From Okeania sp. (GTDB taxonomy: Bacteria > Cyanobacteriota > Cyanobacteriia > Cyanobacteriales > Microcoleaceae): a DNA stretch of 16,453 nucleotides. The stretch covers positions 1 to 16,453 of the forward strand of contig NZ_JAYKGW010000231.1 in assembly GCF_035285525.1 (NCBI RefSeq). The letters run 5' to 3'. Shown one piece after another: positions 1 to 16,407 of this stretch. The position numbers and the translations under genes are program-made. Below the pieces are notes generated by a model. The model had not been told where the DNA came from and searched no databases. It was given only the letters and a program-made list of their open reading frames with translations. Positions within the stretch are counted from its first letter, which is position 1. Each line of letters opens with the position of its first letter.

Positions 1-257
1 CAAACCCTCGACAAATGTAATTGATGTTCCGTAGGGGTTTGGTCTCCAAACCCTCGACAAATGTAATTGATGTTCCGTAGGGGTTTGGTCTCCAAACCCT
101 GGATAAATGGTGTGTATGCTCTGTAGGGGTTTGGTCTCCAAACCCTGGATAAATGGTGTGTATGCTCTGTAGGGGTTTGGTCTCCAAACCCTGGATAAAT
201 GGTGTGTATGCTCCGTAGGGGTTTGGTCTCCAAACCCTGGATAAATGGTGTGTATGC
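1..257. repeat. Tandem 46-bp repeat (about 5.6 units; window starts inside it). Two sequence variants (2 x A, then ~3.6 x B), each containing the hairpin GGGTTTGG-TCT-CCAAACCC
   Basis: Exact period 46: units start at 1, 47 (variant A, ...cgacaaatgtaattgatgttcc...) and at 93, 139, 185, 231 (variant B, ...ggataaatggtgtgtatgctc...). The shared core gtaggggtttggtctccaaaccct is an 8-bp stem with a 3-nt loop. Confidence 0.9.
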
Positions 258-1532: not shown

Positions 1533-1757
1533 CTATTCCAATATCTCGAAAGATTCAACTTCCAAAACAGGACCAATCATCGCGATCGTCATTACATCGT
1601 CTCGCACCACACCTGTAACCCTCACCTTTTGGTCAGACTTACATAGCTCCGTGGGAGCATCCTTTAATTCATAAGTTACAGCATCACTCACTAAAGCCCA
1701 AGTACCAGTACCAAATCCTTGTTTTTCCACAATACCAGTTACTGTAATGCTACTCAT
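1533..1757 (-). CDS. Small conserved hypothetical protein (74 aa), translationally coupled to the upstream S8 peptidase gene
   Basis: Clean ORF. Its ATG (1757-1755) overlaps the TGA stop of the peptidase gene (1756-1754) in an ATGA arrangement. No signal peptide or TM segment is visible. Confidence 0.6.
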   Translation of the reverse strand: MSSITVTGIVEKQGFGTGTWALVSDAVTYELKDAPTELCKSDQKVRVTGVVRDDVMTIAMIGPVLEVESFEILE

Positions 1758-3556
1758 GCTAATTTTTCCTCCGTTCTAATTGCTAAACGTGCTAAACCCA
1801 AACATAACAGAGCATTCACAACTAGGAATATTTGAGCAGTTATACCAGCACCTAATCCCCAAACGGCAGGATCGATAAATGCACTGACAATTAAACAGCT
1901 TGCAACTCCAATAGCAGTACCGATCGCTATCCACTTTCCTTGGTGATGACCTAATAACAACACTATTAATAATAGTGGAATCAATATACTGGCAAAAATG
2001 GGATTCAAAATACCACTACCTTGAATAGCTCCACCCAGTTCCGGTAAAGAACTACCCATGACCCGCATCGGCCATTGGGGTAAATCAAAAACATAGAAAC
2101 TACGCAAGAAAAATAACCCACTGCTACCAAAAATTAATCCGGTATGTAGAGGGAAACTCCAAGCAAAAGGGAAATAATTTCTTAGTAACCAAGCTAACAA
2201 ATAAGAACCTAACACCATTGCTAACTTCGGCAACAATGCTACCGCACCACCATCCAGCCAAAAACCAGGATTTAGATAACCGTTGTCATGCAACCACCGG
2301 AAGAAATCCCGGAAGGTAATTTGACCTTTGATTGCTAAATTAACGGCGGCGGCTGCATCCAACTGGCCTGCACCAAAATGATTTAATGGATCTTCTTCAA
2401 CTGCTCTAGCAGATTTTTTGAGAATATTGGTGATTTCCTCTGGGTCTTCAATACCACTCGCTTTAATTAATGCTGCTACCCCGGCAACGTGGGGAGATGC
2501 CATGCTTGTTCCTTGGAAGGAAGCAAATATAGTGCTGCCATTTTCTGGATTGATGGTTTCTTGGAGAATACCGCCACCTTCATTTTTATCTTTAGTGGAA
2601 CCACCAGGAGCAGAAATATCAACTCCGGCACCAAAGTTAGAGTATGGAGCTTTGTCTCCAGTGGCGTCGGTAGCGGATACTCCAATAACATGGGGATAAC
2701 GAGCAGGGTAACTTGCTGAACTTTGGTTGGCGTTGCCCGCAGCAGCAATAATAACTACACCTTTATTGTGAGCATAATTAATTGCTTCTTGCATTATTTG
2801 GCTTTCACCACCACCACCAAGACTCATATTAATAATGTCTGCACCGTTATCGGCAGCAAATTTTATGGACTCGGCAATATCGGAAACTGTGCCGCCACCT
2901 TGAGCAGATAATACTTTTAGAGGCATGATACTAGCTTCGTAAGCAATACCTGCTACACCATAGTTGTTGTTGGTAGTTTGAGCAATAGTACCTGCAACAT
3001 GAGTACCATGACCGTTGTCATCAGTAGCTGATGTGTTATCATTCACAAAGTCGTAGCCATCAACGAATTTGGTTTTTTGCAGGTCAGGAACTCTCGTAAC
3101 TCCTGTATCAATAACTGCTACAGTTATGCCGTCGCCTTTGGTTTGATTCCAGGCAGATTCGACATTGATGCTCCGCAGGTTCCATTGTTTCCCGTACATG
3201 GGGTCGTTAGGACCGTCACCACTGTCAAATATGATGGCATTAGCGCTATAAACATAGTTGGGTTCAATGTATTCGGTATATTTGCCCAGAGAACTTTTTA
3301 ACTTTTTGAGAAGTTGGCGATCGCCCTTGACAATATACACATTATCTGATAAAGAAAATTCACTATTTAGAGTAGGTGTGACTTGGTATTTGTCGGAGAT
3401 TGTCCTAATTTCATCGACAATTTTAGTAACTCCGATATCTTCACGGAAGTCTAAAACGATTGAGTCATAGATTCCTTTATTGGCCAAACCAGAGAAATTG
3501 GATAAGGCCCAACCAAGTCCAATTAAGAATAAGCAGGCAAACAGAAATTTTTTCAT
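1754..3556 (-). CDS. S8 family (subtilisin-like) serine peptidase: signal/anchor, I9-like propeptide, catalytic domain, and a ~170-aa polytopic C-terminal membrane domain
   Basis: The catalytic triad motifs are explicit: VAVIDTGV (D150, nt 3107-3109), NGHGTHVAG (H183, nt 3008-3010), GTSMASPHVAG (S351, nt 2504-2506), with the oxyanion Asn in AAAGNAN. The N-terminus MKKFLFACLFLIGLGWALS is hydrophobic. Residues ~435-590 contain about 5 hydrophobic helices. Confidence 0.95.
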   Translation of the reverse strand: MKKFLFACLFLIGLGWALSNFSGLANKGIYDSIVLDFREDIGVTKIVDEIRTISDKYQVTPTLNSEFSLSDNVYIVKGDRQLLKKLKSSLGKYTEYIEPNYVYSANAIIFDSGDGPNDPMYGKQWNLRSINVESAWNQTKGDGITVAVIDTGVTRVPDLQKTKFVDGYDFVNDNTSATDDNGHGTHVAGTIAQTTNNNYGVAGIAYEASIMPLKVLSAQGGGTVSDIAESIKFAADNGADIINMSLGGGGESQIMQEAINYAHNKGVVIIAAAGNANQSSASYPARYPHVIGVSATDATGDKAPYSNFGAGVDISAPGGSTKDKNEGGGILQETINPENGSTIFASFQGTSMASPHVAGVAALIKASGIEDPEEITNILKKSARAVEEDPLNHFGAGQLDAAAAVNLAIKGQITFRDFFRWLHDNGYLNPGFWLDGGAVALLPKLAMVLGSYLLAWLLRNYFPFAWSFPLHTGLIFGSSGLFFLRSFYVFDLPQWPMRVMGSSLPELGGAIQGSGILNPIFASILIPLLLIVLLLGHHQGKWIAIGTAIGVASCLIVSAFIDPAVWGLGAGITAQIFLVVNALLCLGLARLAIRTEEKLA

Positions 3557-5171: not shown

Positions 5172-5272
5172 AAAATTAACCTCTCATAATTCCATTTTAG
5201 TGATATAATTTAGTATTTTTCACAAGTATTTACCGAAAAATAAAGGTATAAAATTTAGAATTAAGAATTTAA

Positions 5273-5413
5273 AATTTAGAATTGGAGAGTATACTGAAAA
5301 CATTATGGAAAAAGACTTACAGCACTTAAAGTTCCGAATATAAAGTTTCTCACCTTTAGATAGCTGAAAGCCTTATCTAGTAATAATTATTCTTATAACT
5401 TTGTACTGTAGAC
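5273..5413. repeat. Dispersed repeat copy A. Its paralogue at 10667-10977 carries a MITE-like insertion
   Basis: Shared blocks with copy B: aatttagaattggagagta (5273-5291 vs 10667-10685), ggaaaa(a)gacttaca, aaagtttct, and tagctgaaagcYttaKctagYaataRttattcttaKaactttgYactgtMgaS. Confidence 0.75.
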
Positions 5414-6446: not shown

Positions 6447-6707
6447 TAGATAAAATCCTTTAATAGGGAGTAGGGAGTAGGGGGTATACTCAGAAACCCG
6501 GTTTCTCTCAAGGAACAGGGATTAGGACACAGCTAGCAGTTTCCTCGATGAGGCCACCGATGGGAAAAATCGCACTTGTCTGGAAATTTCTTGGTTTGAA
6601 CAACAATATCACAGCAATAAACTAGGTTTTTTGGTGGCTTTGCGTAAGTCTTGAAATTAATCCTCTCTATTTCCTGTTCCCTCCATACCTGTTCCCTATT
6701 CCCTATT

Positions 6708-7534: not shown

Positions 7535-7810
7535 CTAACCACCAGCAACAGCAGGAACAATACTAACTTCATCCCCATCTTTCAAAGATGTCTTTGTTCC
7601 TTCTAAAAACCGGATATCTTCATTATTCACATAGAAATTTAAAAATCTCCTGGGTTCTCCTTGGTCATCACAGAGACTTTTTTTAATCCCTGGATAATTT
7701 GTTTCTAGAGACTCTATTAATTCTGAAATATTACCACCGCCACATTCAATTTTTGCTTGCTCTTTAGTGAATTTTTGTAGTGGTGTAGGAATTAAAACTG
7801 TAACTGCCAT
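7535..7810 (-). CDS. MoaD/ThiS family ubiquitin-like sulfur-carrier protein (ends ...VPAVAGG)
   Basis: It is 91 aa with a C-terminal Gly-Gly directly before the stop and the [14 protein letters not shown] motif characteristic of the beta-grasp sulfur carriers MoaD, ThiS and CysO. Confidence 0.8.
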
Positions 7811-7842: not shown

Positions 7843-7932
7843 AATTTGAAGGTTTTTTGGGGGTTTGGAGACCAAACCCCTACATAGAAAATTTGAAGGT
7901 TTTTTTGGGGGTTTGGAGACCAAACCCCTACA
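7843..7932. repeat. Two tandem 47-bp units containing the hairpin GGGGTTTGG-AGA-CCAAACCCC, the inverse orientation of the family at 1-257
   Basis: Units at 7843-7884 and 7890-7932 (aatttgaaggtttttt(t)gggggtttggagaccaaacccctaca). The 9-bp stem is at 7860-7868 / 7872-7880. The repeat sits in the 132-nt spacer between thrC and the MoaD-like gene. Confidence 0.9.
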
Positions 7933-7942
7933 GCGATAAAAA

Positions 7943-9256
7943 TTAAACCAAAACTTGTTGCCAGTCAAGACGCTCTAATGTTTGAGCGCGTTCCCATGCT
8001 CTTTCAAAACTATCCAACTTGGCATCTATAGTTAGAGGTTCGCCAATTTCACCTTGTACTGCTTCTTGAGTCTTCAAACCATTACCTGTAATATAAGCAA
8101 CAGTAGTTTCTTCAGGGTCAATCTTACCAGCCTCTACTAATTTTTTCAATACAGCAATAGTTGTACCACCTGCTGTTTCAGTAAAGATACCTTCTGTTTC
8201 TGCCAATAACTTAATACCTGCAATAATTTCAGCATCAGTCACAGACTCAATATTACCATTTGTTTTACGAGCTAAGTCTAATGCGTAAATACCATCAGCA
8301 GGGTTGCCTATAGCGATTGACTTAGCAATAGTATTAGGCTTAACTGGAGTAATAAAATCACGACCTTCTTTAAATGCTTGAGCTACTGGAGAACAACCTT
8401 CAGCTTGCGCTCCACTGAAACGAACTGCTTTATCTTCTACTAAACCTACTTTGATGAACTCTTGGAAACCTTTATAAATTTTGGTGTAGAGGGAACCAGA
8501 AGCAATAGGAGCAACTACATGATCTGGTAGTTTCCATCCTAGTTGTTCGGCGACTTCAAAACCGAGAGTTTTGGAACCTTCAGAATAGTAAGGACGAAGG
8601 TTAATATTTACAAAACCCCAACCGTAAGTATTTGCTACTTCGCAACAGAGGCGGTTTACTTGGTCGTAGTTTCCTTTTACTGCCATAACTGTAGGGTTGT
8701 AAATTAGAGTACCCAAAACTTTACCTGCTTCTAAGTCAGCAGGAATAAATACACAACAATCTAATCCTGCTTTGGCAGCGATCGCTGCGGTGGAGTTAGC
8801 TAGGTTGCCTGTACTTGCACAGGATACTGTGGAGAAACCTAGTTCTCTAGCGCGACTGAGGGCAACTGATACTACCCTATCTTTGAAACTGAGGGTCGGC
8901 ATATTTACGGCATCATTTTTAATGTAGAGATTTTTTAGGCCCAAGCGACGAGCTAAACGTTCTGATTTTAATAGGGGGGTCATTCCTGTGCCTACGTCTA
9001 TAACGTTGTCTGTTGTTACTGGTAAAAAGTGACGATAACGCCAGATAGATTTTGGACCTGCTTCTATTGTTGCTCGACTAACTATTTGACTGAGCTTTTC
9101 ATAGTCATATTTTACTTCTAGGGGACCAAAGCATACGTCTTCACATATATGTTTTGCTTCTAATCCGTACTCTTCTCCACATTCTTTACATTTGAGTTTT
9201 TCTATAACTGTGTTTGTTGTTTGGGTTTGGTTGTGAGTTGTTGTAGTCTGGGTCAT
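7943..9256 (-). CDS. thrC: Threonine synthase family enzyme (fold-type II PLP) with an N-terminal Cys-rich zinc-ribbon
   Basis: The PLP-lysine motif PTLSFKDR is present, with the glycine-rich loops ASTGNLANS and ..TGNGLK. The N-terminus CKECGEEY...HICEDVCFGPLEV is typical of the long (about 430-aa) ThrC class. Function could alternatively be a ThrC-like sulfur-carrier-dependent enzyme (see findings). Confidence 0.88.
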   Translation of the reverse strand: MTQTTTTHNQTQTTNTVIEKLKCKECGEEYGLEAKHICEDVCFGPLEVKYDYEKLSQIVSRATIEAGPKSIWRYRHFLPVTTDNVIDVGTGMTPLLKSERLARRLGLKNLYIKNDAVNMPTLSFKDRVVSVALSRARELGFSTVSCASTGNLANSTAAIAAKAGLDCCVFIPADLEAGKVLGTLIYNPTVMAVKGNYDQVNRLCCEVANTYGWGFVNINLRPYYSEGSKTLGFEVAEQLGWKLPDHVVAPIASGSLYTKIYKGFQEFIKVGLVEDKAVRFSGAQAEGCSPVAQAFKEGRDFITPVKPNTIAKSIAIGNPADGIYALDLARKTNGNIESVTDAEIIAGIKLLAETEGIFTETAGGTTIAVLKKLVEAGKIDPEETTVAYITGNGLKTQEAVQGEIGEPLTIDAKLDSFERAWERAQTLERLDWQQVLV

Positions 9257-9333: not shown

Positions 9334-9413
9334 CTATACCCGACAAATAAAGTCGGGATTGATTTTTACATATATTTTTCTATATTAAATGCTACAGATA
9401 ATTTCTATTTTTA

Positions 9414-9534
9414 GGGAACAGGTATGGAGGGAACAGGTATGGAGGGAATAGGGAATAGGTATGGAGGGAATAGTTTAGACTATCTGCTAATTTATATTTT
9501 TAGGTATGGAGGGAATAGTTTAGACTATCTGCTA
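9414..9534. repeat. GGGAACAGGTATGGA / GGGAATAGG oligomer repeats plus a 34-bp direct duplication
   Basis: gggaacaggtatgga occurs twice (9414-9443). taggtatggagggaatagtttagactatctgcta occurs at 9456-9489 and again at 9501-9534. Inverse-orientation relatives are at about 6670-6708 and 10441-10472. Confidence 0.85.
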
Positions 9535-10001: not shown

Positions 10002-10280
10002 CTAAATTCTAAATTTGTTGAGGCCACCACTGACTGGAGGAATAAGGACTACTTCATCACGGTCCTTGAGGATGGTTTCTGGTGGGACAAAGTTGAGGTT
10101 GATGCCAAATTTGGTAACATTTCGCCACTTTTCTAATTCGGGGTGCTGGCTAATGATTGTTTCTAGGAGTTGGGATACTTTTGTTCCTTCGCAGAGGGTT
10201 AGTTGGAGTTCGGGAACTTTGTAGGCTTCTTGGTATGCTGCGAATAGTTTGAGGGTGATGGTGATTTGGGTATGGTTCAT
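10002..10280 (-). CDS. moaD: MoaD-like sulfur-carrier protein with a 6-residue extension (LNKFRI) after the Gly-Gly
   Basis: ...DRDEVVLIPPVSGG is the canonical MoaD C-terminus. Here the frame continues CTC AAC AAA TTT AGA ATT TAG. The gene symbol is tentative. Confidence 0.68.
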   Translation of the reverse strand: MNHTQITITLKLFAAYQEAYKVPELQLTLCEGTKVSQLLETIISQHPELEKWRNVTKFGINLNFVPPETILKDRDEVVLIPPVSGGLNKFRI

Positions 10281-10509
10281 TAGTTTAAGGAAGAAGGAAG
10301 AGGGAAGAAGTAATAGGGAAGAACTGGAGACGACAAAGTTCTCCTCAAAAATGATTTATAGCAATTTGCGCACTTAATATTTACAAATTTCAGGAGGTGT
10401 CCAATAGCTAAAAACCTTATATTATAGGCTATTCTTTCTGCCTCCATACCTGTTCCCTGTTGCCTGTTCCCTAAAAGCAGCGCTATACTTTTAAGGCTAA
10501 AAATATTAA

Positions 10510-10643
10510 AGGTATCAATAGTTGAACAAAAAATCATGTGTATGGGCGAATAAGCATCAATAACATTTCTTACTTTAATAATATCAGAGTTTTTGGCTGA
10601 AGGCAACCTTTCTGCGAAAAATCTGGGAGCTTTTCAGGATGAG
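10510..10643. repeat. ~134-bp dispersed direct repeat, copy a (copy b at 10999-11133, about 90% identical)
   Basis: Alignable by eye: atcaatagttgaaYaaaaaatcatgtgtatgggcRaata...caataacatttcttactttaataatatcagagtttttgSctgaaggcaacc..tctgcgaaaaatYtgggagcttttcaggatgag. It contains the small hairpin TTGCC-TGAA-GGCAA. Confidence 0.85.
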
Positions 10644-10775
10644 AAGAGGGGAGTGAAAGAACTTAGAATTTAGAATTGGAGAGTACAAAATTCTCCTAAA
10701 AAAGGATTTACTTTTAAGGCTGAAAGTATTACTGGAAAAGACTTACATTACCTAAATTCTAAATAGAAAGTTTCT

Positions 10776-10915
10776 AGGCCGTGTCATCAATTAAATAAGT
10801 TGACAAAAAGGCTACTCTCTGTTATGTAAAAATGGCGATCGCGATTGAGTAGGTTCAGATACAGGCCACTACTTTTGTTGATCAACCCTCTCAGGTGTAA
10901 TTGATGACACACCCT
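10776..10915. mobile_element. MITE-like ~140-bp insertion with terminal inverted repeats, inside dispersed repeat copy B
   Basis: The perfect 13-bp TIR is GTGTCATCAATTA (10781-10793) / TAATTGATGACAC (10898-10910), extendable to 16 of 18 matches (10776-10793 / 10898-10915). The paralogous copy A (aaagtttct|cacctttagatagctg, about 5342-5367) lacks the insert, so it acts as an empty site. The element has no coding capacity. Confidence 0.65.
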
Positions 10916-10998
10916 AACTTTAAAATAGCTGAAAGCTTTAGCTAGCAATAGTTATTCTTAGAACTTTGCACTGTCGAGTTAAGCAACCTTTAACAAAA

Positions 10999-11133
10999 AG
11001 GAATCAATAGTTGAATAAAAAATCATGTGTATGGGCAAATAACCCTCAATAACATTTCTTACTTTAATAATATCAGAGTTTTTGCCTGAAGGCAACCCCT
11101 TCTGCGAAAAATTTGGGAGCTTTTCAGGATGAG
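10999..11133. repeat. ~134-bp dispersed direct repeat, copy b
   Basis: See copy a. The offset between the copies is about 489 bp. Confidence 0.85.
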
Positions 11134-11185
11134 GAGTGTGGGAGGTGTGGACAGTGTGGGAAGTGTGGGAGGTGTGGGAAGTAGA
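11134..11185. repeat. Short tandem GTGTGGGA(R) oligomer repeat
   Basis: gtgtgggaggtgtggacagtgtgggaagtgtgggaggtgtgggaagt. An inverse relative, cccacacttcccacacttcccc, lies at about 4438-4460. Confidence 0.8.
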
Positions 11186-11438: not shown

Positions 11439-13937
11439 ATGAAACAGTCAGAAAATCAAGACCTAGATTACCCATTTCTATTAGTAACTCATATAGTTTG
11501 TGCTGACCAACAAATTCACAGTGAGGAGTCAAAAGCTTTGGATGAGTTGGCAAAACAAAGCCAAGTCGGAACCAGGACTCTTGCAGAGATGGAAAAAATT
11601 CTGGCTCAGGATGAACAACAGTTATCTGTGGCAGAAATTGCATTGCGAGTAGCACCCAAACAAAGAAACGAGACGATGTGGCAAATGTTAAGCATCGCTT
11701 ATGTGGATGGTTTTTGCTCGACATTGGAACGACAAATGGCGCAACAAGTAGCCCAAATTTGGGGTTGGTCTGATGGTGAGTTAGAAAGACAGATAGAGGA
11801 AACTGGTGCTTTTGCTGATACTAGATTTATTGTGGGTGGGAATAAGGAGGAGGTATCTTTGGGAGCGCGGATGTTGAAAAATGCTGATTCTCTTTTGTCA
11901 AAAGCTTTGGTAGATAAGTTGGCAACTTTTAGTAGGAAGCAGCAAAAGGTTGAACAACTAAGGCGGGAAATTTTGTTGTCTGGACTTGAATATGATGAGG
12001 TAATACATCAGTGTGCAGTTATTGCGGAGGAAGATTATTTATTTGGCGAAAGAGCATTGAAATATACAGATAAAGCTTTGCAAAATTTAGGAATAAGTCT
12101 GCAAAAAGCTATTGCAGAAATAAAGGATAAAAGTAGTGAAAAAGGTGCAAATAGTCCTGCTGAAGAAGTGGCAAATCAATTAGAGGGAATTTGCAAGGAA
12201 CTTACTGCTAAAATTATTAAAAAAATTGATGGGGTTAGAGAATCTTTGTGTTCTAAAGAACGAGCTTTAAATCATTTTAGTATTGCTTTTATGGGGAAAA
12301 CTAAGGTTGGAAAAAGTACCCTTCATGCAATTATTACTAATAATGGATGGGATGCTATTGGTGTGGGAAAACAAAGGACTACTCGTTTTAATCGAGTTTA
12401 TGAATGGAAGAATATTCGGGTAATTGATACTCCTGGTATTGGTGCACCTGGAGGTAAAAGTGATGAGGAAATTGCTAAGAGTATTATTGATGAGTCGGAT
12501 GTAATTTGTTATGTGGTGACTAATGATAGTATTCAGGAGAGTGAGTTTAGTTTTTTAGGTTTGCTGAAGCAGAAGGCTAAACCTTTAATTATTTTGTTGA
12601 ATGTTAAATATAATTTGAGAGATAATCGGAGGTTGGAGTATTTTTTAAATAATCCTAATAAGTTGTTTGAAATGAAGGGAAAAAGTGGTATTGGCGGACA
12701 TATTAATCGGATTCGTAGTTATGCTCAAAAATATTATGGTAATGATTATTTTTCGATAGTACCTGTTATGTTATTGGCAGCACAAATTTCTGTTGAAACT
12801 GAGGATAAAAGACGAAAAAATGAGTTGTTTCAGGCTAGTCGAATACAGGATTTTTTAGATTCGTTGAGAGAGTCTTTAATGAAGGATGGAAAAATTAGGA
12901 GATCTCAAACTTTATTGGGTTCGACTGTGGGTGCTATTGAGGATCCTTTGAAGTGGTTAAGATTATTGTCTGAAGTTTATGCTAATTTAGCGCAAGTTCT
13001 GAAAAATAAGCGTGAAGAAATTGAGAAAAAAATTTATAGATCTCGTCAGAATTGTTTGCTTTTTTTGGTGCAAGAAATTAAAATTGTTTTTGAGGATGCT
13101 TTGAATATTATTCCTTCTTTTGCTGAGGATTATTGGGATAAAAATGATAGGGAGTTGAAAGAGGGGTGGCAGACAAAAATTAAGGAAATAGATTTAGAAA
13201 AAAGACTAGAAAGTTGTTATAAGTTGGCTAGTGAAAAGTTTAATAGGGAAGTAACTGAAGTGGTTGAGGAGGTAGGTAGTGAATTACAATTAATTGCTCA
13301 GTCAGAAGCTTTTGATTTGAGTGAACAAGATGCAAGTTTTCTTGACAATAGTTTTGTCAGAATAGCTAGTAGTTTTGTGTTGATAGCTGGAACTATATTT
13401 ACTTTTTTGACTCCGGTAGGTATTTTTGCAGGTTTAACTTTGGGAATTTTTGGTACAGTTTTGACTACGATTAATGGATTGTTTAAGTCTATAGATCAAA
13501 GAAGAACTGAAGCTTTTCAGAAAATATTTGAGTCGTTAAGTAATCAAGTTATTTTTCAAAGGGAAACTACTGTGAAAAAATTTGAGAGTGAGTTTTCTAA
13601 GTCTTGTCAGTTAGTGTCTGAAAATATTGATGATTATTTTGATAATTTAAGTCGGGAGTTAGAGAAAATATCTGAAGAGTCAGAATTAACTAAAAGGAAA
13701 CTTGAATCAGGTGTTAATTATCTAAATCGTGCTTATGCAAAACGTATTATTGATTTGCTTACAGAAAATTATGAACCTCTAGCTGAGGTAAGAATTAATG
13801 AAATAATTGGTAAGGTTAGACGGGAATTTGGGAAAAAGATAATTATTTCTACAAAGACTCAAGTACCAATCAGTAAAACATCTGAAGAAATTAATCTTGT
13901 TATTCAGGAGGATGTGACTATTAAATATATAAAATAG
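11439..13937 (+). CDS. Multidomain P-loop GTPase: N-terminal TerB-like domain, helical region, dynamin-like/LeoBC-like GTPase domain, helical stalk, two-helix hydrophobic membrane hairpin and C-terminal coiled coil
   Basis: The TerB-like double motif is VCADQQIHSEESKALDEL ... IAYVDGFCSTLERQMAQQVAQIWGW (aa ~10-120). G1 is GKTKVGKST (aa 286-294, nt 12294-12320), G3 is DTPG (nt 12426-12437), and G4 is degenerate, NVKYN (nt 12600-12614). The hydrophobic hairpin FVRIASSFVLIAGTIFTFLTP-VGIFAGLTLGIFGTVLTTINGLF covers aa 639-682 (nt 13353-13484). Confidence 0.85.
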   Translation: MKQSENQDLDYPFLLVTHIVCADQQIHSEESKALDELAKQSQVGTRTLAEMEKILAQDEQQLSVAEIALRVAPKQRNETMWQMLSIAYVDGFCSTLERQMAQQVAQIWGWSDGELERQIEETGAFADTRFIVGGNKEEVSLGARMLKNADSLLSKALVDKLATFSRKQQKVEQLRREILLSGLEYDEVIHQCAVIAEEDYLFGERALKYTDKALQNLGISLQKAIAEIKDKSSEKGANSPAEEVANQLEGICKELTAKIIKKIDGVRESLCSKERALNHFSIAFMGKTKVGKSTLHAIITNNGWDAIGVGKQRTTRFNRVYEWKNIRVIDTPGIGAPGGKSDEEIAKSIIDESDVICYVVTNDSIQESEFSFLGLLKQKAKPLIILLNVKYNLRDNRRLEYFLNNPNKLFEMKGKSGIGGHINRIRSYAQKYYGNDYFSIVPVMLLAAQISVETEDKRRKNELFQASRIQDFLDSLRESLMKDGKIRRSQTLLGSTVGAIEDPLKWLRLLSEVYANLAQVLKNKREEIEKKIYRSRQNCLLFLVQEIKIVFEDALNIIPSFAEDYWDKNDRELKEGWQTKIKEIDLEKRLESCYKLASEKFNREVTEVVEEVGSELQLIAQSEAFDLSEQDASFLDNSFVRIASSFVLIAGTIFTFLTPVGIFAGLTLGIFGTVLTTINGLFKSIDQRRTEAFQKIFESLSNQVIFQRETTVKKFESEFSKSCQLVSENIDDYFDNLSRELEKISEESELTKRKLESGVNYLNRAYAKRIIDLLTENYEPLAEVRINEIIGKVRREFGKKIIISTKTQVPISKTSEEINLVIQEDVTIKYIK

Positions 13938-13972
13938 GAAGAAAAATAAATCTTTATCGGAAATATTGTCTG

Positions 13973-14590
13973 TCTGAGAAAGGATTTTTTGAGGAATGAA
14001 AGTAGAGGTTGGAAATGTTAATTTTGGCAAATACTTTCTAACTATTCCTACTTTGACTTTTGGAAAGTAAATATTTCTGAGAAAGGATTTTTTGAGGAAT
14101 GAAAGTAGAGGTTGGAAATGTTAGTTTTGGCAAATATTCTCTCAATATTTCTACTTTGACTTTTGGAAAGTAAATATTTCTGAGAAAGGATTTTTTGACT
14201 AAAGGAGGTTGGAAATGTTAGCTTTGCCAAATATTCTCTCAATATTTCTACTTTGACTTTTGGAAAGTAAATCTTTCTGAGAAAGGATTTTTTGAGGAAT
14301 GAAAGTAGAGGTTGGAAAGGTTAACTTTGGCAAATATTCTCTCAATATTTCTACTTTGACTTTTGCTTTTGGAAAGTATTTTTTCTGGGAAAGGATTTTT
14401 TGACTAAAGGAGGTTGGAAATGTTAGCTTTGCCAAATATTCTCTCAATATTTGTACTTTGACTTTTGGAAAGTAAATCTTTCTGAGAAAGGATTTTTTGA
14501 GGAATGAAAGTAGAGGTTGGAAAGGTTAACTTTGGCAAATATTTTCTCAATATTTCTACTTTTGCTTTTGCTTTTGGAAAGTATTTTTTC
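13973..14590. repeat. Intergenic tandem array of about six ~97-108-bp units in two variants; the last four units form two 205-bp higher-order copies
   Basis: Unit starts (tctgRgaaagg) are at 13973, 14076, 14179, 14276, 14384 and 14481, ending at about 14590. Variant 1 reads ...tttgaggaatgaaagtagaggttggaaa... and variant 2 reads ...tttgactaaaggaggttggaaatg.... Positions 14179-14383 are nearly identical to 14384-14590. Confidence 0.92.
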
Positions 14591-14700
14591 TGGCTTAAAA
14601 ATTTAGATACACCCTGTTTTGGAGACCAAAAACCTACGAAATAACATATATTAATCAGTAAAAAAAATTATAAACTTTATAAAATTGGTGGCAAAAAACA

Positions 14701-16407
14701 ATGACTAACAATAATCAACAATTCCAAGCTGCTAAAGTTGGTTATATCTTTAAAAAAGCGCTAAGCAAGTTTGACAAACTACTAGCTGATATAAATAAAA
14801 AACAATTCACTAATATCCGCAAAAAAATTCGGAAAGAATTAAAAGAATATCGGGAGCAAGGCACAATTAAAGTTGCCTTTATCGGACAATATAGCGCTGG
14901 TAAATCTACAATTATTTCTGCTTTAACAGGAATCAGAAATATTAAAATAGATACTGATATTGGTACTGAAAAAACTATAACTTATGATTGGAATAGTATT
15001 AAAATAATAGATACTCCCGGACTTTTTACAGAACGTCAAGAACATGATGAGATTACTTATGAGGCAATTAATCAAGCTGATTTATTAGTTTTTTGTTTGA
15101 CTTATATGTTATTTGATTCTGTGACAATTGAGAATTTCAAAAAGTTAGCTTATGATAAAGGTTATCGTTGGAAAATGATGTTAGTTGTTAATAAAATGTC
15201 TGATGAAGCTGGAGAAGATGAGGAAAAAATTACTAACTATCGGTACAGTTTAACAGAAGCTCTTAAACCTTTTAATTTTGATGAATTTCCGGTTTGTTTT
15301 ATTGATGCTAAAGATTATTGTGAGGGTATTGATGAGAATGATAATTTTTTGCTGGAGATGAGTCGGTTTGAAACTTTTATTGCTGCTTTAAATACTTTTG
15401 TTGAACGTCGAAGTAGTTTGGCAAAATTCGATACTCCTGTTAGAATAGTATTAAAATTTGTCGAAGATACTCAGTTGATTTTGATGAGCAACTTTGTTGA
15501 AAATACGACATTTTTTGAAGTAGCTAACCGTCTATCTAGAACTATCCGAAAGGAACGAGATAGACTCCGCACAAAAGTTAAAGGCATTTCTTTAGATATG
15601 TCTTCAGCTATTATCAAAGAAGGAAATAAATTAGCAATGGCGGTGGGAACTGATGCAGATTTTGTCAAACTGAATAAAACGGCAGAATTAAATGTTCGTA
15701 ATTTCTATGAAGAAGCAGAAAGTAAGTTACAAGAAGTTTGCGAAACAGCAGTATCAGATATTCGGGAAGCAGTTGCAGAAATATTAGATAGTGACTTGGT
15801 TGAAGCTTTTATTTGTTGTTTAGATAAGGAGCAAAATATTTCGGCTTCTAATATTGATAATGGAAGAAATTTTCCAAGGCTTAAATCTCAAGTTTACTGG
15901 ATAAAGAATATTGCTGAAGTTGCAGGTGTAAAAATAGAAAATTCAGAAACTAAAAGTTTCTTGACAACAACAGAAAGTAGTTTAGGGGTGGGAAAATTTA
16001 TAGGTTTTAAGTATAAATATTGGGAAGCAGTTAGTATTGCTCAAAATCTTGGTAATGATGCTAAATTTTTAGGCCCTGCTGTGGCATTAGTTTCTGTGGA
16101 AATGGATGTTTCGGAAATGCGCAATGAAAGTCAACGAGAAACAGAAATGTCTGATTTAAGAAGAGAAATTTATAGTCAATTTCAGACAATAGCTAAAGAT
16201 TTAGAGGCACAAATAAATCTACAATTATCTGAATTTGAAACTCAGGTTTATACAGAGATTGAAAGGCAAATTGCTGAAGCACGAAAACAGGAAGAGGAGG
16301 CGATCGCTACTTCTAATAATTGGATAAAACAAGTAGGAGAAATTAGAAGTAATTTTGAACTAATTATCCAATATATTCAGAAGGTAACGGCAAAAGCAAA
16401 AGGTTGA
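14701..16407 (+). CDS. Soluble dynamin-like (LeoA/BDLP-type) GTPase, 568 aa
   Basis: G1 is GQYSAGKST (nt 14884-14910), with switch-I threonines in GTEKTITY. G3 is DTPG (nt 15010-15021) and the G4-like motif is VVNKMSD (nt 15190-15204). A long helical, coiled-coil-rich C-terminal region follows. No convincing TM segment. The GTPase domain aligns block by block with that of the upstream 832-aa protein. Confidence 0.85.
   Translation: MTNNNQQFQAAKVGYIFKKALSKFDKLLADINKKQFTNIRKKIRKELKEYREQGTIKVAFIGQYSAGKSTIISALTGIRNIKIDTDIGTEKTITYDWNSIKIIDTPGLFTERQEHDEITYEAINQADLLVFCLTYMLFDSVTIENFKKLAYDKGYRWKMMLVVNKMSDEAGEDEEKITNYRYSLTEALKPFNFDEFPVCFIDAKDYCEGIDENDNFLLEMSRFETFIAALNTFVERRSSLAKFDTPVRIVLKFVEDTQLILMSNFVENTTFFEVANRLSRTIRKERDRLRTKVKGISLDMSSAIIKEGNKLAMAVGTDADFVKLNKTAELNVRNFYEEAESKLQEVCETAVSDIREAVAEILDSDLVEAFICCLDKEQNISASNIDNGRNFPRLKSQVYWIKNIAEVAGVKIENSETKSFLTTTESSLGVGKFIGFKYKYWEAVSIAQNLGNDAKFLGPAVALVSVEMDVSEMRNESQRETEMSDLRREIYSQFQTIAKDLEAQINLQLSEFETQVYTEIERQIAEARKQEEEAIATSNNWIKQVGEIRSNFELIIQYIQKVTAKAKG

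What the first reader, a model, noticed from the sequence alone, without database searches (positions are those of the whole stretch)
11439..16407. Two-gene dynamin-like GTPase module (TerB-GTPase-membrane hairpin plus soluble LeoA-like GTPase): candidate Eleos-like defence or membrane-surveillance system with a new architecture
- Seen in the sequence: two co-oriented large ORFs each carry a translation-factor/dynamin-type P-loop (GxxxxGKST ... DTPG ... N-K-type G4) followed by hundreds of residues of helical, coiled-coil-like sequence. Their G domains align block by block, so they look like distant paralogues.
- Seen in the sequence: only the first protein has a hydrophobic two-helix hairpin, and it carries an extra N-terminal TerB-like domain.
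- Established knowledge: bacterial dynamin-like proteins are commonly encoded as tandem or fused pairs (LeoABC, B. subtilis DynA, Campylobacter DLP1/2). A LeoA + LeoBC pair is catalogued as the anti-phage system Eleos in DefenseFinder and PADLOC.
- Sizes fit that model: 568 aa compared with my recollection of ~577 aa for LeoA, and 832 aa with a membrane segment compared with LeoBC.
- Inference: this is an Eleos-related or parallel system in which a TerB stress or membrane-sensor module has been grafted onto the membrane-anchored subunit. I do not recognise that combination as described.
- Context: the pair sits next to a MITE- and repeat-rich gene desert, which is typical of accessory or defence loci.
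Basis: partly seen in the sequence, partly recalled or inferred. Interest (0 to 1): 0.82.

Follow-up and report, generated by a model that had tools for sequence, protein, structure and literature searches.

The report
TerB-fused Eleos dynamin-like GTPase pair
Two neighbouring genes of an Okeania cyanobacterium encode a membrane-anchored and a soluble dynamin-like GTPase that match the known Eleos (LeoBC/LeoA) anti-phage pair; the anchored one also carries a TerB metal-binding domain, a widespread variant I found described in no paper, which may hint at how such systems sense trouble.

Summary
ORFs 11439-13937 (832 aa) and 14701-16407 (568 aa) are intact, co-oriented GTPase genes.

- **Family match:** PADLOC profiles match both almost end to end. 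Protein 1 matches LeoBC (E 2e-102) and protein 2 matches LeoA (E 3e-115).
- **Structure:** An AlphaFold model of protein 1 (pLDDT 86) resembles BDLP, LeoA, IniA and Campylobacter DLP1/2.
- **TerB domain:** Residues 11-133 are a real TerB domain. They score above the Pfam threshold, the best fold matches are TerB-like structures, and two acidic pairs are conserved.
- **Membrane anchor:** Only protein 1 has a hydrophobic hairpin (638-682).

The fusion is not unique to this locus. It is the usual architecture of a large subfamily: 122 of the 150 closest cluster representatives carry it. The 80 best genome loci are all cyanobacterial, and there are divergent Clostridia relatives.

A LeoA-like gene or its remnant follows in 76 of 81 loci. 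Flanking genes differ between genera. One copy sits on a mobilizable Pseudanabaena plasmid, and Capilliphycus has a 5.1-kb duplicate.

The neighbours are mostly housekeeping genes, not a defence island. Anti-phage function is inferred, not shown.

Verdict: a new variant of a known kind, of moderate interest.

The parts
11439..13937 (+). Gene 1: TerB-LeoBC, an 832-aa membrane-anchored dynamin-like GTPase
   Evidence: ORF. PADLOC LeoBC PDLC03841 scores E 2.3e-102, covering residues 204-768 and profile positions 19-593 of 601. AF2 model has pLDDT 85.8 and pTM 0.82. Foldseek top hits are BDLP 2j69/2j68, LeoA 4aur, IniA 6j72 and DLP1/2 5oxf.
11469..11837 (+). N-terminal TerB-like helical domain (residues 11-133) with conserved acidic pairs D23/E30 and D90/E97
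   Evidence: Pfam PF05099 scores 30.7 bits against a 24.4-bit cut-off. TerB is found in 36 of 58 family members. The family profile hits TerB-like PDB entries 2ou3 and 2h5n. The domain model has pLDDT 91, and its top five fold hits are 2h5n and 2ou3 (probability 0.89-0.97, TM 0.50-0.55). D23, E30, D90 and E97 are invariant or nearly invariant in 30 diverse sequences.
11838..11978 (+). Low-confidence linker (residues 134-180) between TerB and the dynamin-like body
   Evidence: pLDDT is 52-60 across blocks 131-180. The PADLOC LeoBC profile starts aligning only at residue 204. Non-cyanobacterial plasmid homologues align only from residue 185 or later.
12276..12881 (+). G domain of protein 1 (residues 280-481): P-loop 286-294 (nt 12294-12320), DTPG 330-333 (nt 12426-12437), G4-like N388
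   Evidence: Pfam MMR_HSR1 covers 282-388 at E 1.2e-13. G286, K289, G291, K292, D330, T331, P332, G333 and N388 are invariant in 58 sequences.
13350..13484 (+). Hydrophobic two-helix hairpin or paddle (residues 638-682), the membrane anchor
   Evidence: All Kyte-Doolittle windows of 1.6 or more start at residues 638-660, spanning 638-678, with a maximum of 2.09. The family consensus keeps G/P-rich hydrophobic residues followed by LFKSK. The segment sits between the trunk helices of the model, and the tip has low pLDDT.
13785..13928 (+). Small C-terminal alpha/beta domain (residues 783-830), beyond the end of the PADLOC LeoBC profile match
   Evidence: The model shows strands 790-796, 800-805 and 825-830 and helices 783-789 and 815-822, with block-mean pLDDT of 93-96 over residues 781-830. 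The PADLOC match ends at residue 768. The domain is kept in TerB-less relatives P0138, P0181 and P0202, which align through residues 828-829.
13973..14593 (.). 103-bp tandem repeat (5.9 copies) filling the unusually long 763-bp spacer between the two genes
   Evidence: TRF score 876. The typical spacer in other loci is 15-50 nt. A homologous 104-bp array (3.8 copies) lies at the same place in Dapis locus L007. No Rfam hit and no significant fold (z -1.5).
14701..16407 (+). Gene 2: LeoA-like soluble dynamin-like GTPase, 568 aa
   Evidence: PADLOC LeoA PDLC03839 scores E 3.2e-115, covering residues 1-559 and profile positions 1-554 of 559. Pfam Dynamin_N scores 40.3 bits against a cut-off of 27. 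The best PDB sequence hit is LeoA 4aur. Orthologues carry PF18709 DLP_helical. Klebsiella plasmid homologues are annotated as LeoA/HP0731 family.
14869..15315 (+). G domain of protein 2 (residues 57-205): P-loop 62-70 (nt 14884-14910), DTPG 104-107 (nt 15010-15021), NKMSD 164-168
   Evidence: Pfam MMR_HSR1 covers 57-165 and GTP_EFTU covers 95-205.

Best explanation
This is an Eleos-type (LeoBC + LeoA) pair of bacterial dynamin-like proteins, in a subfamily whose membrane-anchored subunit carries an N-terminal TerB domain.

**Shown here**
- Protein 1 has a TerB-like helical domain that retains both acidic, metal-chelating-type pairs.
- A flexible linker follows, then a complete dynamin-like body: neck helices, G domain and a long helical trunk.
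- A hydrophobic hairpin sits in the trunk, and a small C-terminal alpha/beta domain ends the protein.
- Protein 2 is a soluble LeoA-like paralogue with an intact G domain.
- The two genes are inherited as a unit.

**Inferred from the LeoABC, Campylobacter DLP1/2 and Bacillus Eleos literature**
- The hairpin holds protein 1 at the cytoplasmic face of a membrane.
- Protein 1 recruits protein 2.
- Heterotypic G-domain contacts switch on GTP hydrolysis.
- The assembly then tethers or remodels membrane in response to damage or phage infection.

**Inferred, more speculative**
- The TerB domain is the input module. It would couple a membrane-proximal signal, such as a change in divalent cations, to activation of the GTPase.

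The module behaves as an accessory, occasionally mobile cassette in cyanobacteria.
For: - **Eleos profiles:** LeoBC scores E 2.3e-102 and LeoA E 3.2e-115, each over at least 95% of the profile.
- **Gene order:** LeoBC then LeoA is the order of leoC-leoB-leoA in ETEC (PMC4159319). It is also the order in the TerB-less pairs on Klebsiella plasmids.
- **Dynamin-like fold of P1:** The top Foldseek hits over 620-745 aligned columns are BDLP, LeoA, IniA and DLP1/2.
- **P2 identity:** The best PDB sequence hit is LeoA. Orthologues carry the LeoA-derived DLP_helical domain.
- **TerB domain:** Supported.
- **Membrane anchor:** The hairpin is present only in P1.
- **Intact P-loops:** Both proteins keep them. 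In the tested Bacillus vietnamensis system, P-loop mutation of either gene abolished defence against jumbo phages (bioRxiv 10.1101/2022.05.11.491447).
- **Co-conservation:** The partner follows in 76 of 81 loci, usually 15-50 nt downstream.
- **Accessory or mobile behaviour:**
  - Flanks are not conserved between genera.
  - The pair lies on mobilizable plasmid pPg_04 next to a Tn3 transposase.
  - Capilliphycus has a 5.1-kb, 99%-identical second copy.
  - Several genomes carry interrupted or degraded copies.
- **TerB in defence:** TerB proteins occur in the validated systems Bunzi and Shango, where membrane surveillance was proposed.
Against: - No experiment exists on any TerB-bearing member, so anti-phage activity is extrapolated from one Bacillus system.
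- The neighbourhood is not a defence island, either here or among 144 nearest neighbours in 51 loci. Those are mostly housekeeping genes, with only single cases of DrmD, DpdF, BrxH and PsyrT. The canonical family was reported at about 60% co-localisation with defence systems.
- P2 falls far below NCBIfam's cut-off for the LeoA/HP0731 family (84.5 bits against 325).
- P1's sequence identity falls roughly with taxonomic distance in cyanobacteria: 78-81% to Dapis, about 60% to Microcoleus, about 53% to Nostocales. This also fits long vertical residence.
- In this window a 763-bp repeat array separates the genes, so co-transcription is uncertain.
- The TerB ligand and its coupling to the GTPase are pure inference. 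The linker is modelled with low confidence.
Confidence: 0.62

Rival explanations
1. The pair is a stress or housekeeping membrane-maintenance machine rather than an immune system. In filamentous cyanobacteria it would repair or remodel the cytoplasmic or thylakoid membrane, as Bacillus DynA does. TerB would report ionic or oxidative stress. The PADLOC Eleos match would then reflect shared ancestry only.
For: - Nearest neighbours are mostly housekeeping genes and show no defence-island pattern.
- The family is spread over many cyanobacterial orders, and identity falls roughly with taxonomic distance.
- The locus is syntenic within Microcoleus/Tychonema.
- Cyanobacterial dynamin-like proteins have been proposed to serve thylakoid and membrane dynamics (PMC5827413).
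- ETEC LeoABC itself was first linked to vesicle release, not immunity.
Against: - Only 299 of the 185,579 species genomes scanned encode a relative.
- Flanks vary between genera.
- The pair is carried on a plasmid next to a Tn3 transposase, a helicase and a methyltransferase.
- Capilliphycus has a recent intragenomic duplicate.
- The LeoA partner is repeatedly interrupted or degraded. These traits suggest a dispensable accessory module.
- The closest experimentally tested relatives by profile are an anti-phage system.
Confidence: 0.3
2. The genes are ordinary ribosome-associated or Era/EngA/EngB-type GTPases, as the database names suggest ('50S ribosome-binding GTPase', 'GTP-binding protein EngB').
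For: - Pfam MMR_HSR1 is the top Pfam hit for both proteins.
- There are weak NCBIfam hits to Der, Era and EngB.
- Public names follow these hits.
Against: - All those NCBIfam hits lie far below their cut-offs, for example Der at 38.6 bits against 306.7, and they cover only the ~110-residue G-domain core.
- Full-length matches are to LeoBC and LeoA.
- The protein 1 model has the long neck-and-trunk helices and membrane hairpin of dynamin-like proteins.
- Neither protein has a KH or other RNA-binding domain.
Confidence: 0.02
3. The pair is part of a tellurite or metal resistance (Ter) system, with TerB as the functional core and the GTPases as accessories.
For: The TerB domain is real and keeps its acidic pairs.
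Against: - No terZ/A/C/D/E or other Ter-associated genes occur in the window. None appears among the 25 most frequent Pfam families of 144 neighbours.
- The only gene co-conserved with P1 is the LeoA-like GTPase.
- TerB-less relatives keep the same pair, so the GTPase pair is the core.
Confidence: 0.03

Closest known systems
Eleos anti-phage system (LeoA + LeoBC; the 'dynamin-like' system of Millman et al. 2022, tested from Bacillus vietnamensis NBRC 101237)
   Same: - Two adjacent co-oriented dynamin-like GTPase genes.
- Near full-length matches to both PADLOC profiles.
- Both P-loops are intact.
- The family was reported to include Cyanobacteria.
   Different: - Protein 1 carries about 180 extra N-terminal residues (a TerB domain plus linker) that the LeoBC profile does not cover.
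- It also has a C-terminal alpha/beta domain beyond the profile match.
- There is no defence-island context.
- No functional test exists.
LeoA/LeoB/LeoC of enterotoxigenic E. coli H10407 (LeoA structure 4AUR)
   Same: - Same gene order, with the anchored subunit upstream of soluble LeoA.
- LeoA is P2's best PDB sequence hit and among the top fold matches of P1.
- The sizes agree: 568 aa against 577 aa.
   Different: - In ETEC the anchored subunit is split into LeoC and LeoB, with a separate transmembrane helix on LeoC. Here it is one chain with a hairpin in the trunk.
- Sequence similarity to the ETEC-type profiles is weak: LeoB E 1.7e-6, LeoC E 1.2e-3 and the LeoA PDLC03840 profile E 1.8e-17.
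- P2 misses the NCBIfam LeoA/HP0731 cut-off.
- ETEC has no TerB.
Tandem bacterial dynamin-like pairs: Nostoc punctiforme BDLP (2J68/2J69), Campylobacter jejuni DLP1/DLP2 (5OWV/5OXF), Streptomyces DynA/DynB, fused B. subtilis DynA
   Same: - G domain plus neck, trunk and paddle architecture.
- These are the best fold matches of the P1 model.
- One partner is membrane-bound and the other soluble.
- Heterotypic cooperation is expected.
   Different: - They belong to a different sequence clade: 11-14% identity in the structural alignments.
- None has a TerB domain.
- Jilly et al. 2018 sorted cyanobacterial dynamin-like proteins into the KGK, HSR1, chaperone and Tandem A/B clades and an unclassified remainder, and never mention TerB.
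- The family member MC7420_3127 of Coleofasciculus PCC 7420 is absent from their list.
TerB-containing defence systems Bunzi and Shango, and stand-alone TerB proteins (2OU3, 2H5N)
   Same: - The TerB fold and its acidic pairs.
- TerB is coupled to an NTPase or effector in a membrane-proximal setting, which led to the proposal of 'membrane surveillance'.
   Different: - The partner here is a dynamin-like GTPase, not a helicase (Shango) or the Bunzi proteins.
- No PADLOC hit to Bunzi or Shango components was returned for either protein.

Membership tests
Eleos (PADLOC/DefenseFinder: LeoA + LeoBC) | A protein matching the LeoBC profile | tested here: met
   PDLC03841 scores E 2.3e-102 (342 bits), covering profile positions 19-593 of 601 and residues 204-768.
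Eleos (PADLOC/DefenseFinder: LeoA + LeoBC) | A protein matching the LeoA profile | tested here: met
   PDLC03839 scores E 3.2e-115 (384 bits), covering profile positions 1-554 of 559.
Eleos (PADLOC/DefenseFinder: LeoA + LeoBC) | The two genes are adjacent, on the same strand, and co-conserved | tested here: met
   Both genes are on the + strand and 763 bp apart. The partner lies directly downstream in 76 of 81 loci.
Eleos (PADLOC/DefenseFinder: LeoA + LeoBC) | Intact phosphate-binding loops in both proteins (needed for defence in the tested system) | tested here: met
   GKTKVGKST and GQYSAGKST are present. The mutational requirement comes from bioRxiv 10.1101/2022.05.11.491447.
Eleos (PADLOC/DefenseFinder: LeoA + LeoBC) | Frequent co-localisation with other defence systems (about 60% in Millman et al.) | tested here: not met
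   The window's neighbours are metabolic. Among 144 nearest neighbours in 51 loci there are only single cases of DrmD, DpdF, BrxH and PsyrT. This is a crude survey with no background control.
Eleos (PADLOC/DefenseFinder: LeoA + LeoBC) | Protection against phage | not testable with these tools
   This needs an experiment. Only the Bacillus vietnamensis system has been tested.
LeoA/HP0731 family dynamin-like GTPase (NCBIfam NF041922) | Score at or above the curated cut-off of 325 bits | tested here: not met
   P2 scores 84.5 bits, and the best-scoring matched stretch covers only residues 19-130. Klebsiella plasmid homologues at 30% identity do carry this name.
Dynamin superfamily / bacterial dynamin-like proteins | Dynamin-type G domain (Pfam Dynamin_N) | tested here: met
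   P2 scores 40.3 bits against a cut-off of 27. P1 alone scores 20 bits, below the cut-off, but 52 of 58 P1-family members hit at E of 1e-3 or better.
Dynamin superfamily / bacterial dynamin-like proteins | Helical neck and trunk bundle with a membrane-binding paddle or hairpin | tested here: met
   The AF2 model has pLDDT 85.8. Foldseek top hits are BDLP, LeoA, IniA and DLP1/2 at E 3e-9 to 9e-6 over 620-745 columns. The hairpin spans residues 638-682. TM-scores are low (0.16-0.30), as expected for hinged proteins.
Dynamin superfamily / bacterial dynamin-like proteins | GTP-dependent self-assembly and membrane remodelling | not testable with these tools
   This needs biochemistry.
TerB domain (PF05099) | Pfam score above the gathering threshold | tested here: met
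   30.7 bits against 24.4, covering residues 15-117 and profile positions 7-115 of 118.
TerB domain (PF05099) | TerB-like helical fold | tested here: met
   The domain model has pLDDT 91.2. Its five best PDB matches are 2h5n and 2ou3 (probability 0.89-0.97, TM 0.50-0.55). No other hit exceeds probability 0.18, although the E-values are weak at 0.3-0.6.
TerB domain (PF05099) | Two conserved acidic (D...E) pairs proposed to bind metal | tested here: met
   E30 is invariant, and D23, D90 and E97 are at least 90% conserved in 30 diverse sequences. Metal binding itself was not tested; its role rests on my knowledge of Anantharaman et al. 2012, which is not held in the library.
Ter (tellurite resistance) operon | Presence of terZ/A/C/D/E or associated genes nearby | tested here: not met
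   None occurs in the window or among the commonest neighbour families.

The most novel reading that the evidence does not exclude
TerB-LeoBC/LeoA may be a distinct, ancient branch of Eleos-like systems, found in cyanobacteria with divergent cousins in Clostridia. In this reading the TerB domain is the long-sought sensor. It would bind a divalent cation or another membrane-proximal signal released when the envelope is breached, for example by phage genome injection or pore formation, and so license heterotypic dynamin-like GTPase assembly. That would make it the first Eleos variant with an identifiable input module. It would also link TerB mechanistically to Bunzi and Shango.
Probability: 0.25. 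Interest if true: 0.65.

Novelty: new variant of a known kind. Interest (0 to 1): 0.45.

Why it matters
Eleos is a validated anti-phage system, but its trigger and mechanism are unknown. The ETEC LeoBC subunit could not be produced for biochemistry (PMC4159319).

A large, naturally occurring subfamily whose anchored subunit is fused to a recognisable sensor-type domain offers two things:
- A concrete hypothesis for signal input, testable by point mutations in four conserved acidic residues.
- A fresh set of orthologues for biochemistry and structure work.

The result also corrects database naming. Hundreds of cyanobacterial proteins labelled '50S ribosome-binding GTPase' or 'EngB' are dynamin-like LeoBC homologues. 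It also adds a clade that the 2018 survey of cyanobacterial dynamin-like proteins did not recognise.

The limits are clear. The kind of system is known, TerB is a promiscuous domain in conflict systems, and no function has been shown.

Tried and rejected
- **Literature on a TerB-dynamin or TerB-Eleos fusion.** Full-text searches for TerB with dynamin, TerB with Eleos, Eleos with dynamin-like and phage, and Eleos with cyanobacteria found no description. The key TerB paper (Anantharaman et al. 2012) is not held, so an earlier mention there cannot be excluded.
- **Ribosome-GTPase reading.** Rejected. The hits cover only the G-domain core and lie far below the curated cut-offs.
- **Phage origin.** There is no tblastn hit in 50,697 phage records.
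- **RNA genes.** The window has no tRNA or Rfam family.
- **The inter-gene tandem repeat as a structured RNA.** One unit folds no better than shuffled sequence (z -1.5). Promoter and terminator scans were uninformative.
- **Taxonomy of distant representatives.** A cluster look-up returned no organism names. A profile search did name Clostridia.
- **Pfam scan of all 150 representatives.** I replaced it with a local jackhmmer run and a 58-member scan.
- **A conserved third gene.** None was found across genera. A small membrane-protein ORF lies between the genes in only four loci.
- **Lyngbya aestuarii multi-copy.** The three hits are overlapping contig ends with 100% identical sequence, so they are not proof of several copies.

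Full report
**1. The observation**

Both proteins carry a GxxxxGKST P-loop, at P1 286-294 and P2 62-70. Both carry DTPG, at P1 330 and P2 104. Both have an N-K-type G4 motif.

Their G domains align at 28% identity over 110 residues (E 2e-9). Each also cross-hits the other's PADLOC profile. They are therefore distant paralogues.

Only P1 has a strongly hydrophobic stretch, about 45 residues at 638-682. P2 has none.

The Pfam TerB match at the N-terminus of P1 scores above the gathering threshold, 30.7 bits against 24.4.

The exact protein exists in NCBI as 'GTPase [Okeania sp.]' on a contig of 16,453 bp. The window is therefore a whole contig of an Okeania assembly.

**2. What the two proteins are**

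*PADLOC.* These profiles give near full-length matches.
- P1 matches LeoBC at E 2.3e-102, over profile positions 19-593 of 601.
- P2 matches LeoA at E 3.2e-115, over positions 1-554 of 559.

*Pfam and NCBIfam.*
- P2 passes the Pfam Dynamin_N cut-off.
- NCBIfam hits to Era, Der and EngB cover only the G-domain core and lie far below their cut-offs. The public names '50S ribosome-binding GTPase' and 'EngB' are therefore misleading.
- P2 also falls below NCBIfam's strict LeoA/HP0731 cut-off, 84.5 bits against 325. It belongs to the broad LeoA family but not to that subfamily.

*Sequence and structure.*
- By sequence, P2's best solved relative is LeoA 4AUR.
- Orthologues of P2 carry the LeoA-derived DLP_helical domain PF18709.
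- An AlphaFold2 model of P1, built on 58 sequences, has pLDDT 85.8 and pTM 0.82.
- The model shows two long neck helices (183-275), a G domain (280-481) and a long helical trunk (484-624 and 685-775). The hydrophobic hairpin interrupts the trunk, and a small alpha/beta domain follows at 783-830.
- Its best PDB matches are all bacterial dynamin-like proteins: Nostoc BDLP, LeoA, mycobacterial IniA and Campylobacter DLP1/2 (E 3e-9 to 9e-6 over 620-745 columns).
- TM-scores are low, as expected for hinged molecules.

**3. The TerB domain**

- The family profile hits the TerB-like structures 2OU3 and 2H5N by sequence.
- A separate model of residues 1-135 has pLDDT 91.2.
- Its five best fold matches are those same two entries (probability 0.89-0.97, TM 0.50-0.55). 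Nothing else exceeds probability 0.18.
- In an alignment of 30 diverse members, E30 is invariant and D23, D90 and E97 are at least 90% conserved. These are the two D...E pairs that characterise TerB. Their metal-binding role rests on my knowledge of the TerB literature and was not tested.
- The domain is joined to the dynamin-like body by a low-confidence linker at residues 134-180.
- The PADLOC LeoBC profile starts only at residue 204.
- TerB-less homologues on Klebsiella and Bacillus plasmids align only from residue 185 or 248 onward.

TerB plus the linker is therefore a true addition to the canonical LeoBC.

**4. How widespread the fusion is**

*Close relatives.* The 120 best 90%-identity clusters are all roughly full length (692-852 aa) and 52-81% identical. 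Nearly all carry PF05099. They come from Dapis, Microcoleus, Tychonema, Capilliphycus, Symploca, Stigonema, Trichocoleus, Nostoc, Calothrix and Rivularia.

*Representative search.* An exhaustive search of 1.84 billion cluster representatives found 343 proteins at E of 1e-30 or better.
- Of the best 150, 122 carry an N-terminal domain homologous to the query's.
- Among those of at least 780 aa, 109 of 114 carry it.
- Pfam itself recognises TerB in 36 of 58 sampled members.

*Genome scan.* A scan of 185,579 species genomes found 299 with a relative. The best 80 loci are all cyanobacterial and span Oscillatoriales, Nostocales, Pleurocapsales, Chroococcidiopsidales, Pseudanabaena and Leptolyngbya.

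*Clostridia.* A more distant branch of about 820-830 aa lies in Clostridia, including Clostridium saccharobutylicum, Mobilitalea and Blautia.
- Its N-terminal domain is too divergent for Pfam.
- It is still homologous by profile-profile comparison (probability 89.9%, E 1.7e-6).

The architecture is therefore old and common, not a peculiarity of this locus.

**5. Co-conservation and context**

*Partner gene.* A LeoA-like gene or its remnant follows P1 directly in 76 of 81 loci. The other five are cut by contig or locus ends. The usual spacer is 15-50 nt.

*Flanks.* No flanking gene is shared beyond Microcoleus/Tychonema.

*Mobility.*
- The pair sits on the mobilizable plasmid pPg_04 of Pseudanabaena galeata, next to a Tn3 transposase, a DEAD-box helicase and a methyltransferase.
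- Capilliphycus salinus has two copies, 99.1% identical over 5.1 kb, at 1.26 and 3.29 Mb.

*Decay.* Several genomes carry damaged partner genes:
- Nostoc FACHB-152 has a frameshift.
- Capilliphycus has an in-frame stop.
- Planktothrix has a gap of about 1.1 kb between the two matching segments of the partner gene.
- Floridaenema has a truncated P1-like match followed by only the tail of the partner.

*Defence neighbourhood.* These traits mark an accessory, occasionally mobile two-gene cassette. The neighbourhood, however, is not a defence island.
- The window's other genes are PNPOx, an S8 peptidase with DUF5942, NAGPA, two ThiS genes and a PALP enzyme. Their only PADLOC hits are the S8 peptidase's matches to subtilase and IetS profiles.
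- Among 144 nearest neighbours in 51 loci, housekeeping families dominate. Defence components appear only singly.
- This survey has no background control.
- No phage record carries a homologue.

**6. Mechanism**

*Shown here.* The domain anatomy, the pairing of the genes and the intact nucleotide-binding motifs.

*Inferred from the literature.*
- LeoA alone binds no nucleotide, and activation by heterodimerisation with membrane-bound LeoBC was proposed (PMC4159319).
- In the tested Bacillus vietnamensis system, P-loop mutation of either gene abolished defence against the jumbo phages AR9 and PBS1 (bioRxiv 10.1101/2022.05.11.491447).

*Model.* I therefore propose the following sequence:
1. P1 is held at the cytoplasmic face of a membrane by its hairpin.
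2. P1 recruits P2.
3. Heterotypic G-domain contacts drive GTP hydrolysis.
4. The assembly tethers or remodels membrane.

*Speculative step.* TerB, which is flexibly tethered, may be the input module. TerB proteins occur in the defence systems Bunzi and Shango, where membrane surveillance was suggested.

*Main rival.* The pair could be a non-immune membrane-stress or thylakoid-maintenance machine. The housekeeping context and broad cyanobacterial spread support that reading.

**7. Comparison and novelty**

- By sequence profiles, gene order and architecture this is an Eleos-family pair, and PADLOC-type tools would very probably call it so. That last step is an inference; I could not run the full pipelines.
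- It differs from the described systems by the TerB fusion, the extra C-terminal domain and the lack of defence-island context.
- Searches of the held literature found no description of a TerB-dynamin or TerB-LeoBC fusion.
- The 2018 survey of cyanobacterial dynamin-like proteins never mentions TerB. Its list omits the family member MC7420_3127 of Coleofasciculus PCC 7420.
- The key TerB review could not be read.

I rate this a new variant of a known kind, with moderate interest (0.45). It is real, widespread and gives a testable handle on how Eleos senses its trigger. The class of system is known, however, and TerB is a promiscuous domain.

Noticed in passing
window 13973-14593; L007 8490-9224: The 763-bp spacer between the two GTPase genes is filled by a 103-bp tandem repeat (5.9 copies). 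Dapis sp. BLCC M172 has a 104-bp array (3.8 copies) at the same position. The two arrays are about 70-72% identical to each other, and within each array TRF reports 86-89% matches between adjacent copies. The array is thus positionally conserved across two genera and looks homogenised within each genome. Most other loci have only 15-50 nt here.
   Followed up: partly
L017 8505-9011, L027 8517-8795, L043 8617-8931, L048 8619-8990: In four loci from different taxa, a small ORF (93-169 aa) lies between the LeoBC-like and LeoA-like genes. It has a conserved N-terminus of the form M.[LV][IF][LF]A[ED]FCGRWGC followed by a hydrophobic segment. It may be an optional third membrane component. It is absent from the window.
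   Followed up: partly
L003 9954-15052 and L025 5900-11004 (Capilliphycus salinus chromosome CP178543.1, at about 1.26 and 3.29 Mb): The same chromosome holds two copies of the whole module plus a downstream 221-aa ORF. They are 99.1% identical over 5.1 kb and have different flanks, so this is a recent segmental duplication or transposition. In the L003 copy the LeoA-like gene is called as two same-frame ORFs (320 + 266 aa), which implies an in-frame stop near codon 320; whether the L025 copy shares it was not checked.
   Followed up: partly
L004/L037 (Nostoc sp. FACHB-152), L032 (Planktothrix sp. PCC 11201), L056 (Floridaenema aerugineum): The LeoA-like partner is damaged in several genomes. 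In Nostoc it is frameshifted near residues 300-308 into a GTPase ORF and a DLP_helical ORF. In Planktothrix its two matching segments lie about 1.1 kb apart. In Floridaenema a P1-like match that ends at residue 693 is followed directly by a match to P2 residues 457-562 only. The module is therefore dispensable in some lineages.
   Followed up: partly
window 24-257, 7853-7939, 14618-14646; 6667-6707, 9412-9534, 10432-10468; 10508-10651 and 10997-11141; 5263-5412 and 10657-10977: The window holds several families of short dispersed repeats. One is a palindromic GGGGTTTGGTCTCCAAACCCC element, which includes a 46-bp tandem array (5 copies) at the window start. Another is a TAGGGAACAGGTATGGAGGGAA element found on both strands. 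There are also two duplicated intergenic segments of about 65-145 bp. These confirm the 'repeat-rich' surroundings, but their nature (MITE or other) was not established.
   Followed up: no
window 1754-3556 (-); L004 1-1700: A Peptidase_S8 + DUF5942 protein lies about 8 kb upstream of the pair, both in this window and in Nostoc sp. FACHB-152. It gives a PADLOC 'subtilase' hit (E 1e-27). This may be coincidence or residual linkage. It did not recur in the flank clustering, which used only ±6 kb flanks.
   Followed up: no
P0188 (962 aa), P0137 (1089 aa), P0142 (1299 aa): Some metagenomic relatives have further fusions. P0188 carries TerB plus ankyrin repeats ahead of the LeoBC body. P0137 and P0142 carry long extra regions of unknown nature.
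   Followed up: no
window 7535-7810, 7943-9256, 10002-10280 (all -): Two ThiS/MoaD-like sulfur-carrier genes flank a PALP-family enzyme, possibly a CysO/CysM- or threonine-synthase-like arrangement. This cluster is unrelated to the finding.
   Followed up: no
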